Positions 30,405 to 53,286 of a stretch of DNA of 64,000 nt are shown here, piece after piece. The position numbers and the translations under genes are program-made. A model generated the notes under the pieces. The model was not told the DNA's origin and did not search any database. It saw only the letters and a list, made by a program, of their open reading frames with translations. The first letter of the stretch is position 1. Each line of letters begins with the position of its first letter. The stretch lies in NCBI RefSeq assembly GCF_055900595.2, contig NZ_CM148325.1. One strand, 5' to 3'.

Positions 30405-30421
30405 TAACGTCGTTATTAAAA

Positions 30422-30448
30422 AGCCTGCCATCTGGCAGGCTTTTTTAT
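30422..30448 (+). terminator. glyQS rho-independent terminator
   Basis: GCCTGCCATCTGGCAGGC followed by TTTTTTAT, 18 nt after glyS stop. Confidence 0.8.
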
Positions 30449-30609
30449 CGCTAAATAATAGAGCAACCTTTAATAATCTTCTGCTGAATAAAGATTGTCT
30501 CATATATTAATTTTATGAGATTTTTTTAGGATTATATCAAGGAGAAGAAACGAACTTATTAAACTAGAATAGCTGCGGGTGCTTGAGACTGTTTGTCTCA
30601 GGTATTCAC

Positions 30610-30690
30610 CGAAAGGCAGACAGAGAAAAGCCCCACCTGACTATAAATCAAAGTGAGGCTACCCTATGCCTGAACACCATAAGGTTAGCC
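30610..30690 (-). ncRNA. sokA: putative Sok-type antisense RNA of the hokA locus (approximate position)
   Basis: Inference from hok/sok locus architecture (antisense RNA overlapping the mok translation start region); no promoter or terminator individually verified. Confidence 0.3.
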
Positions 30691-30878
30691 TCTTACTCGT
30701 TGGAAATCAACACAGGAGGCTGGGAATGCCGCAGAAATATAGATTACTTTCTTTAATAGTGATTTGTTGCACGCTTTTATTTTTCACCTGGATGATAAGA
30801 GATTCACTGTGTGAATTGCATATTAAACAGGGGAGTTATGAGCTGGCGGCATTTTTAGCCTGCAATTTGAAAGAGTAA
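30666..30878 (+). CDS. mokA: Mok-type reading frame overlapping and in-frame with hokA (translational coupling ORF)
   Basis: 70-codon ORF starting MPEHHKVSLLLVGNQHRRLG then continuing into Hok; architecture matches known chromosomal hok/mok loci. Confidence 0.5.
   Translation: MPEHHKVSLLLVGNQHRRLGMPQKYRLLSLIVICCTLLFFTWMIRDSLCELHIKQGSYELAAFLACNLKE
30726..30878 (+). CDS. hokA: Hok-family type I toxin (50 aa membrane peptide)
   Basis: MPQKYRLLSLIVICCTLLFFTWMIRDSLCELHIKQGSYELAAFLACNLKE; AGGAGG 6 nt upstream of ATG; terminator hairpin GGCGGGAAGTTATTCCCGCC follows. Confidence 0.85.
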   Translation: MPQKYRLLSLIVICCTLLFFTWMIRDSLCELHIKQGSYELAAFLACNLKE

Positions 30879-31065
30879 GAGTCTTCGGCGGGAAGTTATT
30901 CCCGCCTTTCTTACGGCGTTGCGCATTCTCATTGCACCCAAATTTATTTTTCACAAAAATAATAATAGATTTTATTACGCGATCGATTATTTATTTCCTG
31001 AAAAACAAATAAAAAAATCCCCGCCAAATGGCAGGGATCTTAGATTCTGTGCTTTTAAGCAGAGA

Positions 31066-31278
31066 TTACAGGCTGGTTACGTTACCAGCTGCCGGGCCTT
31101 TAGCGCCGCTTTCGATGGTGAAGGACACTTTCTGACCTTCGTCCAGAGATTTGTAACCATCGTTCTGGATAGCAGAGAAGTGTACGAACACGTCTTTAGA
31201 GCCATCGTCAGGAGTGATGAAGCCGAAGCCTTTGTCAGCGTTGAACCATTTTACGATACCAGTCATTTTACCGGACAT
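31066..31278 (-). CDS. cspA: major cold-shock protein CspA
   Basis: [70 protein letters not shown] (70 aa, RNP1/RNP2 motifs). Confidence 0.98.
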
Positions 31279-31500
31279 AGTGTATTACCTTTAATAATTA
31301 AGTGTGCCTTTCGGCGATATGGCGTGCTTTACAGATTTTGAAGCGTTAAAGGAATGTGCACTACGAGGGGTATCAACGATAACTCTTGAAGGGACTTGCC
31401 TTACTACACTGCTTTAATGGTCTGTACGTCAAACCGTTGATGTGCATTAAGCCACGCATTGGCGGGTGATGCAACAATTATTTTTCATATTTATGATTAA
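31279..31500 (-). promoter_or_regulatory. cspA long 5' UTR (cold-box leader, about 160 nt) and promoter with AT-rich upstream element
   Basis: Reverse complement of 31279..31438 reads as the known cspA leader ...ACGGTTTGACGTACAGACCATTAAAGCAGTGTAGTAAGGCAAGTCCCTTCAAGAG...; TTGCAT / CTTAAT-like promoter hexamers upstream. Confidence 0.7.
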
Positions 31501-50684: not shown

Positions 50685-51039
50685 AAAGTCCTGTCCAGAA
50701 AGAAGTCGGCCTCGCAAAAATGAATAAACCCAGTTTCTCTTGCGCAACAGGTGGAGAAGTCGAATACGCAGTATGTAAAAAATGAGGCAATAGATTCACT
50801 GGGGAGGTCGCGAGGAGGCGCAATTCTACAAAATTGCGCATTTCACTACCAGTCTGGAGTCAGCCCGGATATGAACTGCAACTATTGCAAATAAAGAAAT
50901 TAAGCTGGAAGGTATCACGCAATGAGGAAGGTTGCCGGGTGCTGACGGTAAAAAGCAATCGTAAAATCAGCGGCAAGCCGGAAAGGTTCCGGTGAGGCGC
51001 AATGTTGCGGGGGCTTAATCCCTGGTGGCATTGGTTGCT

Positions 51040-51112
51040 GGAGAGAGAAAACCCCCGCACGTTGCAGATATTCACCTGACAACATCACGGGGGCTAATCT
51101 TGAACCTAGACC
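51040..51112 (-). ncRNA. rdlD: putative Rdl antisense RNA, copy 1 (approximate ends)
   Basis: Minus-strand GC stem (CCCCCG...CGGGGG) followed by UUUUCUCUCU, opposite the ldr leader; inferred from LDR locus organisation. Confidence 0.35.
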
Positions 51113-51159
51113 ACTCAAGAATAGCCGCGAAACGTTGTCATTACAACACAGGCGGCTAT

Positions 51160-51267
51160 ATGACGCTCGCAGAACTGGGCATGGCCTTCTGGCATGATTT
51201 AGCGGCTCCGGTCATCGCTGGCATTCTTGCCAGCATGATCGTGAACTGGCTGAATAAGCGGAAGTAA
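51160..51267 (+). CDS. ldrD: Ldr-family type I toxin, copy 1 (35 aa)
   Basis: MTLAELGMAFWHDLAAPVIAGILASMIVNWLNKRK; closest to K-12 LdrD as recalled. Confidence 0.85.
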   Translation: MTLAELGMAFWHDLAAPVIAGILASMIVNWLNKRK

Positions 51268-51522
51268 CGTGTCAGACGGGCGTCAGGCTGCCGTAATGGC
51301 AATTTGCGCCCGGACCAGGCCGCAGGGATAAAACTCTGCGGCCTTTTTCGTAAGAAAAATGCAACGGTTGCAAGCGGATAATATTCTGCGGAATGCGCAG
51401 CACAGAGTGAAGAAGTGACGGATTCCGGAACAGAAAAACAGTCGTAGAATCAGCGGCAAGCCGGAAGGGTTCCGGTGAGGCGCAATGTTGCGGGGGCTTT
51501 ATCCCTGGTGGCATTGGGTGCT

Positions 51523-51595
51523 GGAGAGAGAAAACCCCCGCACGTTGCAGGTATGCACCTGACAACACCACGGGGGCCATTCTTGCATCCAAACA
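51523..51595 (-). ncRNA. putative Rdl antisense RNA, copy 2 (approximate)
   Basis: Same element one repeat unit downstream. Confidence 0.35.
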
Positions 51596-51642
51596 ATACA
51601 AGAATAGCCGCGAAACGTTGTCATTACAACACAGGCGGCTAT

Positions 51643-51750
51643 ATGACGCTCGCAGAACTGGGCATGGCCTTCTGGCATGATTTAGCGGCTCCGGTCATTG
51701 CTGGCATTCTTGCCAGTCTGATCGTGAACTGGCTGAATAAGCGGAAGTAA
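51643..51750 (+). CDS. Ldr-family type I toxin, copy 2
   Basis: MTLAELGMAFWHDLAAPVIAGILASLIVNWLNKRK (M26L relative to copy 1). Confidence 0.85.
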   Translation: MTLAELGMAFWHDLAAPVIAGILASLIVNWLNKRK

Positions 51751-52006
51751 CGTGTCAGACGGGCGTCAGGCTGCCGTAATGGCAATTTGCGCCCGGACCA
51801 GGCTGCAGGGATAAAACTCTGCGGCCTTTTTCGTAAGAAAAATGCAACGGTTGCAAGCGGATAATATTCTGCGGAATGCGCAGCACAGAGTGAAGAAGTG
51901 ATGGATTTCGACGAGCAAAAATGGCCGTAGAATCAGCGGCAAGCCGGAAGGGTTCCGGTGAGGCGCAATGTTGCGGGGGGCTTTATCCCTGGTGGCATTG
52001 GTTGCT

Positions 52007-52079
52007 GGAGAGAGAAAACCCCCGCACGTTGCAGGTATGCACCTGGCAACACCACGGGGGCCATTCTTGCATCTAGACC
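52007..52079 (-). ncRNA. putative Rdl antisense RNA, copy 3 (approximate)
   Basis: Same element. Confidence 0.35.
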
Positions 52080-52126
52080 ATTCAAGAATAGCCGTGAAAC
52101 GTTGTCATTACAACAGAGGCGGCTAT

Positions 52127-52234
52127 ATGACGCTCGCAGAACTGGGCATGGCCTTCTGGCATGATTTAGCGGCTCCGGTCATCGCTGGCATTCTTGCCAG
52201 TCTGATCGTGAACTGGCTGAACAAGCGGAAGTAA
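52127..52234 (+). CDS. Ldr-family type I toxin, copy 3
   Basis: Identical peptide to copy 2. Confidence 0.85.
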   Translation: MTLAELGMAFWHDLAAPVIAGILASLIVNWLNKRK

Positions 52235-52489
52235 CGTGTCAGACGGGCGTCAGGCTGCCGTAATGGCAATTTGCGCCCGGATCAGGCCGCAGGGATAAAA
52301 CTCTGCGGCCTTTTTCGTAAGAAAAATGCAACGGTTGCAAGCGGATAATATTCTGCGGAATGCGCAGCACAGAGTGAAGAAGTGACGGATTCCGGAACAG
52401 AAAAACAGTCGTAGAATCAGCGGCAAGCCGGAAGGGTTCCGGTGAGGCGCAATGTTGCGGGGGCTTTATCCCTGGTGGCATTGGTTGCT

Positions 52490-52562
52490 GGAGAGAGAAA
52501 ACCCCCGCATATTGCAGGTATGCACCTGACAACATCACGGGGGCCATTCTTGAACCTACACA
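52490..52562 (-). ncRNA. putative Rdl antisense RNA, copy 4 (approximate)
   Basis: Same element. Confidence 0.35.
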
Positions 52563-52609
52563 ACTCAAGAGTAGCCGCGAAACGTTGTCATTACAACACT
52601 GGCGGCTAT

Positions 52610-52717
52610 ATGACGCTCGCAGAGCTGGGCATGGCCTTCTGGCACGATTTAGCGGCTCCGGTCATTGCTGGCATTCTTGCCAGTCTGATCGTGAACTGGC
52701 TGAACAAGCGGAAGTAA
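52610..52717 (+). CDS. Ldr-family type I toxin, copy 4
   Basis: Identical peptide to copy 2. Confidence 0.85.
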   Translation: MTLAELGMAFWHDLAAPVIAGILASLIVNWLNKRK

Positions 52718-52972
52718 CGTGTCGGACGAGCGTCAGGCTGCCGTAATGGCAATTTGCGCCCGGACCAGGCCGCAGGGATAAAACTCTGCGGCCTTTTTCG
52801 TAAGAAAAATGCAACGGTTGCAAGCGGATAATATTCTGCGGAATGCGCAGCACAGAGTGAAGAAGTGACGGATTCCGGAACAGAAAAACAGTCGTAGAAT
52901 CAGCGGCAAGCCGGAAGGGTTCCGGTGAGGCGCAATGTTGCGGGGGCTTAATCCCTGGTGGCATTGGTTGCT

Positions 52973-53045
52973 GGAGAGAGAAAACCCCCGCACGTTGCAG
53001 GTATGCACCTGACAACATCACGGGGGCTAATCTTGAACCCAAACA
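52973..53045 (-). ncRNA. putative Rdl antisense RNA, copy 5 (approximate)
   Basis: Same element. Confidence 0.35.
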
Positions 53046-53092
53046 ACTCAAGAATAGCCGCGAAACGTTGTCACTACAACAGAGGCGGCTAT

Positions 53093-53200
53093 ATGACGCT
53101 CGCAGAACTGGGCATGTCCTTCTGGCATGATTTAGCGGCTCCGGTCATTGCTGGCATTCTTGCCAGTCTGATCGTGAACTCGCTGAATAAGCGGAAGTAA
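53093..53200 (+). CDS. Ldr-family type I toxin, copy 5 (variant A9S, W30S)
   Basis: MTLAELGMSFWHDLAAPVIAGILASLIVNSLNKRK; loss of the C-terminal-region Trp may affect activity. Confidence 0.7.
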   Translation: MTLAELGMSFWHDLAAPVIAGILASLIVNSLNKRK

Positions 53201-53286
53201 CGTGTCATGCGGGCGTCAGGCTGCCGTAATGGCAATTTGCGCCCGGATCAGGCCGCAGGGGTGAAACTCTGCGGCCTTTTTCGTTC

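What the first reader, a model, noticed from the sequence alone, without database searches (positions are those of the whole stretch)
30600..30910. Apparently intact hokA/mokA/sokA type I toxin-antitoxin locus, with no IS element beside it
A 50-aa Hok peptide with strong Shine-Dalgarno, an in-frame upstream Mok-type ORF and a downstream terminator hairpin are all present, and nothing transposase-like lies between glyS and cspA. In K-12 this locus is flanked or disrupted by IS150, as I recall, and is regarded as inactive. An undisrupted copy could be a functional membrane-depolarising toxin locus. Together with the ldr array this puts six small-toxin genes in the window.
Basis: partly seen in the sequence, partly recalled or inferred. 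Interest (0 to 1): 0.4.

Follow-up and report, generated by a model that had tools for sequence, protein, structure and literature searches.

The report
Ordinary IS-free hokA toxin-antitoxin locus
This is the normal, uninterrupted form of the E. coli chromosomal hokA/mokA/sokA small-toxin locus; about half of sequenced E. coli carry it, and it was studied in strain C in 1999, so it is correctly spotted but ordinary.

Summary
The 661-bp glyS-cspA spacer (window 30405-31065) holds a complete hokA unit and no transposase.

- **ORFs:** 50-aa HokA at 30726-30878. MokA, in frame, at 30666-30878.
- **Family matches:** NCBIfam HokA equivalog 126.5 bits. The mRNA leader matches Rfam RF01794 at 124 bits.
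- **RNA elements:** Folding reproduces every R1 hok/sok element: tac-fbi 5'-3' clamp, ucb/SDmok sequestration, tac-ucb switch after 3' trimming, target hairpin, 3' stem-loop.
- **Antisense gene:** A SokA gene with a TTGATT-17-TAACCT promoter is predicted on the minus strand.
- **K-12:** It carries IS150 plus a 39-nt deletion (30655-30693). That removes the mokA start, the Sok target and the sokA 5' end.

None of this is new. The unit is contiguous in 2812 of 5426 complete E. coli genomes, and four are 100% identical to the window. It differs at five positions in the transcript from the IS-free E. coli C locus studied by Pedersen & Gerdes (1999). That locus reportedly gave no post-segregational killing and no rifampicin activation.

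"Intact" holds at sequence level. "Functional" remains unproven. The five-copy ldr/rdl array is also real.

The parts
30565..30570 (+). Putative -10 box (TAGAAT) of the hokA/mokA mRNA promoter; no good -35 box. Inferred only.
   Evidence: Lies 6 nt upstream of the homology-inferred +1 (G30577). Positional match to the R1-like hok promoter in alignment A1. Not picked up by the consensus scan.
30577..30941 (+). Predicted full-length hokA/mokA mRNA (about 365 nt).
   Evidence: The Rfam RF01794 match starts at 30577 at model position 1. The fold has z = -6.5 against shuffles, with the 5' and 3' ends paired.
30577..30587 (+). tac (translational activator) element, GGGUGCUUGAG.
   Evidence: Pairs with fbi in the full-length fold and with ucb in the truncated fold. 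Invariant in all the other E. coli loci that cover this stretch (9 of the 10 rows compared).
30629..30636 (+). ucb / anti-SD box (AGCCCCAC).
   Evidence: Pairs with the SDmok region 30653-30660 in the full-length fold and with tac in the truncated fold. Geometry matches the R1-like control, with two compensatory pair changes.
30655..30658 (+). mokA Shine-Dalgarno (GAGG), 7 nt before the mokA ATG.
   Evidence: Sequence. Sequestered by ucb in the full-length fold.
30666..30878 (+). mokA ORF (70 aa), in frame with hokA, so MokA is an N-terminally extended HokA.
   Evidence: K-12 annotates mokA with the same stop as hokA.
30655..30692 (+). Sok-target hairpin (SDmok/dcb stem GAGGCUA/UAGCCUC; loop CCUGAACAC contains CUGA, which fits the YUNR pattern).
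   Evidence: Rfam consensus structure. The constrained fold is within 0.5 kcal/mol of the MFE of the truncated mRNA.
30714..30719 (+). hokA Shine-Dalgarno AGGAGG. A30717 is polymorphic: G in E. coli C and in every sampled locus outside K-12, including the IS150-interrupted P27 locus.
   Evidence: Paired with 30859-30863 in both folds.
30726..30878 (+). hokA ORF, 50-aa membrane toxin.
   Evidence: Pfam HOK_GEF 79.3 bits. NCBIfam NF007290 HokA equivalog 126.5 bits. RefSeq annotates the identical sequence as hokA, WP_001135727.1.
30887..30906 (+). G+C-rich 3' stem-loop followed by UUUC. By homology with R1, this is the 3' end of the processed, active mRNA.
   Evidence: Same position as GGCGGGCGCAGGCCCGCC-UUUUC in the R1-like locus.
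30927..30939 (+). fbi (fold-back inhibition) element UCUCAUUGCACCC.
   Evidence: Pairs with tac in the MFE. The pair probabilities reported were 0.97-1.0, for the four inner pairs 30584-30587 with 30931-30928. The outer GGGUGC/GCACCC pairs appear in the MFE but their probabilities were not obtained, because of an indexing slip. Invariant in all the other E. coli loci that cover this stretch (9 of the 10 rows compared).
30682..30710 (-). Predicted sokA promoter: -35 TTGATT (30710-30705), 17-nt spacer, -10 TAACCT (30687-30682).
   Evidence: Read from the sequence. My recollection of the R1 Sok promoter is TTGCGC-17-TATCCT; the alignment with the R1-like locus (MAFFT) places the -10 hexamers in register and the -35 hexamers about 4 nt apart. 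Invariant in all sampled loci that retain the region; of the two IS150-interrupted types, K-12 lacks the -10 box. Identical to E. coli C. Missed by the strict consensus scan.
30619..30675 (-). Predicted SokA antisense RNA (about 57 nt): short single-stranded 5' tail, long hairpin, UUUUCUCU tail. The 5' end is complementary to the mokA start region.
   Evidence: Folds. The 3' 35 nt correspond to the K-12 sokA pseudogene remnant. A target length of 52 nt is quoted for E. coli C hokA/sokA in PMC3562002.
30651..30693 (.). Empty IS150 target zone. AAG 30651-30653 is the duplicated target of the simple IS150 insertion in strain P27_L1_05.20. 30655-30693 is the 39-nt stretch missing next to IS150 in K-12.

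Best explanation
The region is the native, uninterrupted allele of the E. coli chromosomal hokA/mokA/sokA type I toxin-antitoxin locus. It is expected to work like hok/sok of plasmid R1.

Proposed mechanism:
1. A weak promoter makes a stable mRNA of about 365 nt (30577 to about 30941).
2. The 5' tac element of that mRNA is clamped to the 3' fbi element. As a result ucb masks the mokA Shine-Dalgarno, and the hokA SD and AUG are buried.
3. Slow 3' trimming back to the stem-loop at 30887-30906 frees tac. tac then pairs with ucb, and the mokA start region refolds into a target hairpin.
4. The constitutive, short-lived antisense SokA RNA (about 57 nt, 30675 to 30619 on the minus strand) binds that hairpin. 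This blocks mokA translation, and therefore the coupled hokA translation, and triggers cleavage of the duplex.
5. Where SokA is lacking, the 50-aa HokA peptide would insert into the inner membrane and depolarise it.

Shown here: the ORFs, family membership, leader RNA family match, predicted alternative folds, promoter and terminator motifs, absence of any IS, and conservation across strains.

Inferred by homology: transcription starts, 3' processing, SokA expression and instability, mok-hok coupling, and RNase III cleavage.

Published work on the near-identical E. coli C locus suggests that under laboratory conditions the system stays silent.
For: - HokA equivalog 126.5 bits and HOK_GEF 79 bits.
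- Rfam RF01794 124 bits over 30577-30728, with the tac/ucb and SDmok/dcb helices.
- Full-length fold: tac-fbi pairs (pair probability 0.97-1.0 for the four inner pairs; the outer pairs appear in the MFE only), ucb-SDmok pairs, and the hokA SD and AUG paired. Truncated fold: tac-ucb.
- The same pipeline run on an R1-like hok locus gives the same architecture. There are compensatory differences, for example R1 G76-C99 and U77-A98 against hokA A30635-U30654 and C30636-G30653.
- SokA fold, and promoter TTGATT-17-TAACCT, invariant in all sampled loci that retain the region and identical to E. coli C.
- Synteny glyS-hokA-cspA. RefSeq annotates the 100%-identical locus as hokA.
- The mechanism of the family is summarised in PMC9841398.
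- HokA (K-12 allele) was toxic on overexpression (bioRxiv 10.1101/2025.08.07.668861).
Against: - There are no expression data for this strain.
- The hokA promoter has no recognisable -35 box. Neither promoter passes a simple consensus scan.
- The IS-free E. coli C locus differs from the window at only 5 positions within the transcript. It reportedly did not mediate post-segregational killing and was not activated by rifampicin. Chromosomal hok mRNAs are reported to be poorly translated in vitro.
- Roughly 48% of complete genomes have the locus interrupted, and ECOR29 has lost the hokA stop codon. The locus is therefore dispensable.
- The window's HokA carries F15C relative to the E. coli C and O157 allele. 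That variant is untested.
Confidence: 0.88

Rival explanations
1. Structurally complete but physiologically dead relic. The locus keeps every recognisable element yet can no longer be activated (for example too little translation of the truncated mRNA), so it does nothing for the cell and persists by drift.
For: - Reported lack of killing for the IS-free E. coli C hokA locus, and poor in vitro translation of chromosomal hok mRNAs.
- Frequent loss by IS150 insertion, in about 46% of genomes (estimated).
- Loss of the stop codon in ECOR29.
Against: - tac, ucb, fbi and the 3' stem-loop core are invariant across the E. coli loci compared that cover them, and the sokA promoter is invariant in those that retain it. 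These loci span 95-100% identity.
- The mokA and hokA ORFs are open in 9 of 10 sampled alleles.
- The tac-fbi and ucb-SDmok helices carry compensatory changes relative to R1. This argues for continued selection on RNA structure.
Confidence: 0.35
2. Fully active killer locus in this strain. The canonical AGGAGG hokA SD (G at 30717 in E. coli C and in every sampled locus outside K-12) makes this allele translationally competent where the E. coli C allele was not.
For: - A30717 gives AGGAGG in place of AGGGGG.
- All other elements are intact.
Against: - In hok systems Hok translation depends on mok translation, not mainly on the hok SD (PMC9841398).
- In the fold A30717 pairs with U30861, and G would still pair.
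- K-12 carries the same A, so it is a common polymorphism.
- There are no experimental data.
Confidence: 0.1
3. Not a TA locus at all: chance ORFs in an AT-rich spacer.
For: None beyond the small size of the ORFs.
Against: Family E-values from 1e-22 to 1e-37, and an RNA family match at E=8e-28.
Confidence: 0.01

Closest known systems
hokA/sokA locus of E. coli C (Pedersen & Gerdes 1999, Mol Microbiol 32:1090; genome NZ_CP020543.1)
   Same: - Same glyS-cspA position, with no IS and a spacer of the same 661-bp length.
- 17 differences in 661 bp.
- The predicted SokA gene and its promoter (30619-30710) are identical.
- The sokT haplotype is the same.
   Different: Differences within the transcript:
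- 30717 A/G (hokA SD AGGAGG against AGGGGG; MokA R18G).
- 30769 (HokA C15 against F15).
- 30869 (synonymous).
- 30921-22 (between the stem-loop and fbi).

There are also three changes just upstream of +1: 30563, 30574 and 30575.
hokA / mokA' / sokA' of E. coli K-12 MG1655 (b4455, b4647, b4614)
   Same: - Same gene and same neighbours.
- hokA ORF 47 of 50 aa identical.
- Same AGGAGG SD, 3' stem-loop and fbi.
   Different: - K-12 has a 1443-bp IS150 plus a 39-nt deletion (window 30655-30693).
- The deletion removes the mokA SD and ATG, the Sok target, and the sokA 5' end and -10 box.
- The IS separates hokA from its promoter, tac and ucb.
hok/mok/sok of plasmid R1 (parB)
   Same: - Same order of elements: tac, ucb, SDmok, mok, dcb, SDhok, hok, stem-loop, fbi, and an antisense Sok with its promoter inside mok.
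- Same predicted alternative folds (mechanism in PMC9841398).
   Different: - Chromosomal, not plasmid-borne.
- mokA is in frame with hokA.
- The 5' leader is about 25 nt shorter.
- The primary sequence is only weakly similar (no stretch of the MAFFT alignment A1 is well conserved).
- No plasmid-stabilising or killing phenotype is reported for hokA loci.

Membership tests
[quoted passage not shown] | Hok toxin of about 50 aa with the HOK_GEF domain | tested here: met
   PF01848 79.3 bits (cut-off 22), covering profile positions 1-42 of 42.
[quoted passage not shown] | Upstream overlapping mok reading frame with its own SD | tested here: met
   70-codon ORF 30666-30878, with GAGG 7 nt upstream. 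Translational coupling itself is not testable here.
[quoted passage not shown] | Conserved hok mRNA leader structure (tac/ucb stem, SDmok/dcb target hairpin) | tested here: met
   Rfam RF01794 124 bits against a gathering score of 59, full length 1-157. The tac-ucb stem is in the MFE of the truncated mRNA.
[quoted passage not shown] | Long-range 5'-3' tac/fbi pairing that locks the full-length mRNA | tested here: met
   Ten tac-fbi pairs in the MFE, extended by A30588-U30927, with one internal loop. Pair probability 0.97-1.0 was obtained for the four inner pairs only. The same result was obtained for the R1-like positive control. Thermodynamic prediction only.
[quoted passage not shown] | 3' stem-loop that defines the processed, active mRNA | tested here: met
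   8-bp G+C-rich hairpin at 30887-30906, at the position homologous to R1. Processing itself is not testable.
[quoted passage not shown] | cis-encoded antisense Sok RNA gene overlapping the mok start, with its own promoter and terminator | tested here: inconclusive
   Sequence motifs are present and conserved: TTGATT-17-TAACCT, hairpin plus U-tail, and a match to the K-12 sokA remnant. The consensus promoter scan did not call it, and expression cannot be tested.
[quoted passage not shown] | Killing when Sok decays (post-segregational killing, rifampicin activation) | not testable with these tools
   The literature reports a negative result for the E. coli C hokA locus.
HokA orthologue group (E. 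coli chromosomal locus between glyS and cspA) | HokA-specific sequence and conserved synteny | tested here: met
   NF007290 equivalog 126.5 bits against a cut-off of 89. glyS upstream and cspA downstream. 5425 of 5426 E. coli genomes match, all on the chromosome.

The most novel reading that the evidence does not exclude
IS150 occupies the same few base pairs between ucb and SDmok, in both orientations, in roughly 46% of complete E. coli genomes. That recurrence may reflect repeated selection to silence an otherwise costly, active hokA. The window's allele is IS-free and has a canonical AGGAGG hokA SD, so it would be one of the more active natural versions. This would make it a chromosomal hok locus able to kill or arrest growth under some natural trigger.
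Probability: 0.1. Interest if true: 0.35.

Novelty: already known. Interest (0 to 1): 0.08.

Why it matters
It matters little beyond correct annotation. The window comes from an E. coli lineage that keeps the ancestral, uninterrupted hokA/mokA/sokA unit, which K-12 and about half of sequenced strains have lost to IS150.

Strains like this one are the right background for asking what chromosomal hok loci do, a question still open since 1999. The locus itself adds no new biology.

The population numbers are a modest by-product. About 52% of genomes are intact. The rest are estimated to fall into at least two IS150-associated classes at one hot spot.

Tried and rejected
- **Promoter scan:** the simple promoter/terminator scan found neither the hokA nor the sokA promoter. 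Both are assigned by homology and conservation only.
- **Primary paper:** I tried to read Pedersen & Gerdes 1999 directly but it is not held. Its results are cited second-hand.
- **ATCC 8739 as a stand-in for E. coli C:** its locus turned out to be K-12-type, with a second IS3-family element replacing most of IS150. I therefore located the true E. coli C genome instead.
- **Coordinate error:** I first used 30727 as the hokA start, an off-by-one error. This was corrected to 30726.
- **Literature search:** the search on hokA/sokA/mokA was swamped by unrelated words.
- **STnc370:** the sub-threshold Rfam hit at 30412-30478 (46 bits against a gathering score of 54) is just the glyS terminator region and was dismissed.
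- **Scans not run:** The identity was already unambiguous.

Full report
**What is there**

Window 30405-31065 is the 661-bp spacer between the glyS stop and the convergent cspA gene. The cspA 5' UTR thermoregulator is found by Rfam at 31011-31438 on the minus strand.

The spacer contains a 50-codon ORF at 30726-30878. It is preceded by AGGAGG at 30714-19. A 70-codon ORF begins at ATG 30666 in the same frame and is preceded by GAGG.

The 50-aa product matches Pfam HOK_GEF (79.3 bits, E=1.5e-22). It also matches the NCBIfam HokA equivalog NF007290 (126.5 bits against a cut-off of 89).

On the plus strand, 30577-30728 matches Rfam RF01794 end to end (124 bits against a gathering score of 59). Despite its name "sok", this model describes the sense leader of hok mRNAs, from the conserved 5' end to the hok AUG. 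A G+C-rich hairpin followed by TTTC lies at 30887-30906.

**No IS, and what K-12 looks like**

The whole spacer aligns in one piece to other E. coli chromosomes. Strain E400634 is 100% identical, and RefSeq annotates hokA at the same place there.

In K-12 (NEB 5-alpha and MG1655) a 1443-bp IS150 sits directly upstream of hokA. MG1655 annotates mokA and sokA as pseudogenes.

Base-level comparison shows that K-12 also lacks 39 nt next to the IS, window 30655-30693. That stretch holds the mokA SD and ATG, the Sok target, and the 5' end and -10 box of sokA. The IS also separates hokA from its promoter, tac and ucb.

A second class is represented by strain P27_L1_05.20. It has IS150 in the opposite orientation as a simple insertion, with a 3-bp target duplication AAG at 30651-30653. 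ATCC 8739 has the K-12-type junctions, but another IS3-family element replaces most of IS150.

**How common is the intact state**

With the 386-nt unit (30560-30945) as query, 2812 of 5426 complete genomes have it contiguous. An evenly spaced sample of 60 records gave these estimates:

| Class | Rows of 60 | Share |
|---|---|---|
| Contiguous | 31 | 52% |
| Broken at window ~30649 (P27-type position) | 11 | about 18% |
| Broken at ~30694 (K-12-type position) | 17 | about 28% |

The junction classes were verified at sequence level only in the loci named above. Four genomes are 100% identical to the window over the unit, and dozens are at least 99% identical.

**Regulatory anatomy**

Folding 30577-30941 gives -138.9 kcal/mol (z = -6.5). 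In this fold:

- The 5' end GGGUGC.UGAG pairs with CUCA..GCACCC at 30928-30939. This is the tac-fbi clamp. Pair probabilities of 0.97-1.0 were obtained for the four inner pairs; the outer six pairs appear in the MFE.
- AGCCCCAC (ucb, 30629-36) pairs with GUGAGGCU, which contains the mokA SD.
- The hokA SD and AUG pair with 30850-30863.

Folding the 3'-trimmed form (30577-30910) switches tac onto ucb. The Rfam-type target hairpin, GAGGCUA/UAGCCUC with loop CCUGAACAC, is within 0.5 kcal/mol of the MFE.

The same pipeline applied to an R1-like hok locus (L006) gives the same tac-fbi and ucb-SDmok helices, with the same bulged C. Two ucb-SDmok pairs differ by compensatory double changes. This is the architecture described for R1 hok mRNA (PMC9841398).

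On the minus strand, TTGATT (30710-05), a 17-nt spacer and TAACCT (30687-82) are my reading of the sokA promoter. From memory the R1 Sok promoter is TTGCGC-17-TATCCT. The MAFFT alignment with the R1-like locus puts the -10 hexamers in register and the -35 hexamers about 4 nt apart.

The predicted SokA RNA of about 57 nt (30675 to 30619) has a free 5' tail complementary to the target loop, a long hairpin and a UUUUCUCU tail. Its 3' 35 nt coincide with the K-12 sokA remnant. The hokA promoter (TAGAAT 30565-70, no clear -35 box) is inferred only. The simple consensus scan called neither promoter.

**Is anything mutated**

I aligned the window with nine other E. coli loci, seven IS-free and two IS150-interrupted, and with E. 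coli C.

- tac, ucb and fbi are invariant in every locus that covers them.
- The sokA -35 and -10 boxes are invariant in the loci that retain them; K-12 lacks the -10.
- The 3' hairpin has only loop or flank changes.

Against E. coli C there are 17 differences in 661 bp, five of them within the transcript:

- 30717 A/G (AGGAGG against AGGGGG; MokA R18G).
- 30769 (HokA C15 against F15).
- 30869 (synonymous).
- 30921-22 (between the hairpin and fbi).

**What is known**

IS-free hokA was described and tested long ago. Later papers cite Pedersen & Gerdes 1999 for three points:

- The K-12 hok loci are inactivated by IS elements, point mutation or rearrangement.
- Wild strains lack these IS elements.
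- hokA of E. coli C has a sokA antisense regulator but did not mediate post-segregational killing and was not activated by rifampicin.

Chromosomal hok mRNAs are also reported to be poorly translated in vitro. HokA (K-12 allele) is toxic when overexpressed, and it already encodes both cysteines needed for the disulfide. An intact hokA was also noted in AIEC strain NRG857c. I could not read the 1999 paper itself.

**Verdict**

The locus is the common wild-type allele of a well-known system. Intactness holds at sequence and predicted-structure level, while activity remains as uncertain as it has been for chromosomal hok loci since 1999. Novelty: already known. Interest: low.

Noticed in passing
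window 50951-53284: Five tandem ldr/rdl type I toxin-antitoxin units with a 483-bp period and 94% matches. There are five 35-aa Ldr ORFs (MTLAELGMAFWHDLAAPVIAGILAS.IVNWLNKRK and variants) and five rdlD Rfam hits at 51046-53044. ATCC 8739 and E. coli C each have a single ldrD at this position, between yhjV and bcsG.
   Followed up: partly
window 30651-30693 (compared with L001, L003, L005): IS150 hot spot. IS150 sits at almost the same base in opposite orientations in two lineages. One is a simple insertion with target duplication AAG. The other (K-12 type) comes with a 39-nt deletion. In ATCC 8739 a second IS3-family element has replaced most of the IS150. About 46% of complete genomes are estimated to be interrupted here.
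   Followed up: partly
window 30660-30673: Two distinct haplotypes of the mokA start and Sok-target segment exist in E. coli. The window, E. coli C, ECOR29, FDAARGOS_1280 and P27 have GGCTACCCTATGCCTGAAC. Strains 3059, 3347558, SF-166 and EC444 have GGCCCCTCTATGCATAGAC, and O157:H7 has that variant with one further change. These are 6 clustered changes that alter the antisense pairing sequence and MokA residues 2-3. This may be a change of Sok/target specificity or a recombination tract.
   Followed up: no
window 30717: The hokA Shine-Dalgarno is AGGAGG in the window and in K-12. It is AGGGGG in E. coli C and in every other locus sampled, including the IS150-interrupted P27 locus. In the predicted fold this base pairs with U30861 either way.
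   Followed up: partly
window 30855-30926, minus strand: A 23-codon ORF (MRNAVRKAGITSRRRLLLFQIAG) lies antisense to the hokA 3' end and stem-loop. It is the homologue of K-12 ysaE (b4793, MRNAVSKAGIISRRRLLLFQFAG) and is annotated as a hypothetical protein in RefSeq genomes. It has no Pfam or NCBIfam match.
   Followed up: partly
L008 (ECOR29), corresponding to window 30877: ECOR29 has an otherwise IS-free locus with a substitution in the hokA stop codon. RefSeq flags hokA as a pseudogene there.
   Followed up: no
L013 (FDAARGOS_1280), inserted after about window 30950: An insertion of about 394 bp carrying a 123-aa ORF annotated as YidD-like lies between the hokA fbi element and the cspA terminator. 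This strain has the same HokA allele as the window.
   Followed up: no
window 30497-30527: An AT-rich hairpin (TCTCATAT...ATGAGA) followed by TTTTTTT lies between the glyS terminator (30421-30447) and the hokA promoter. It may be a second terminator that insulates hokA from glyS read-through (fold -9.2 kcal/mol, z = -2.7).
   Followed up: partly
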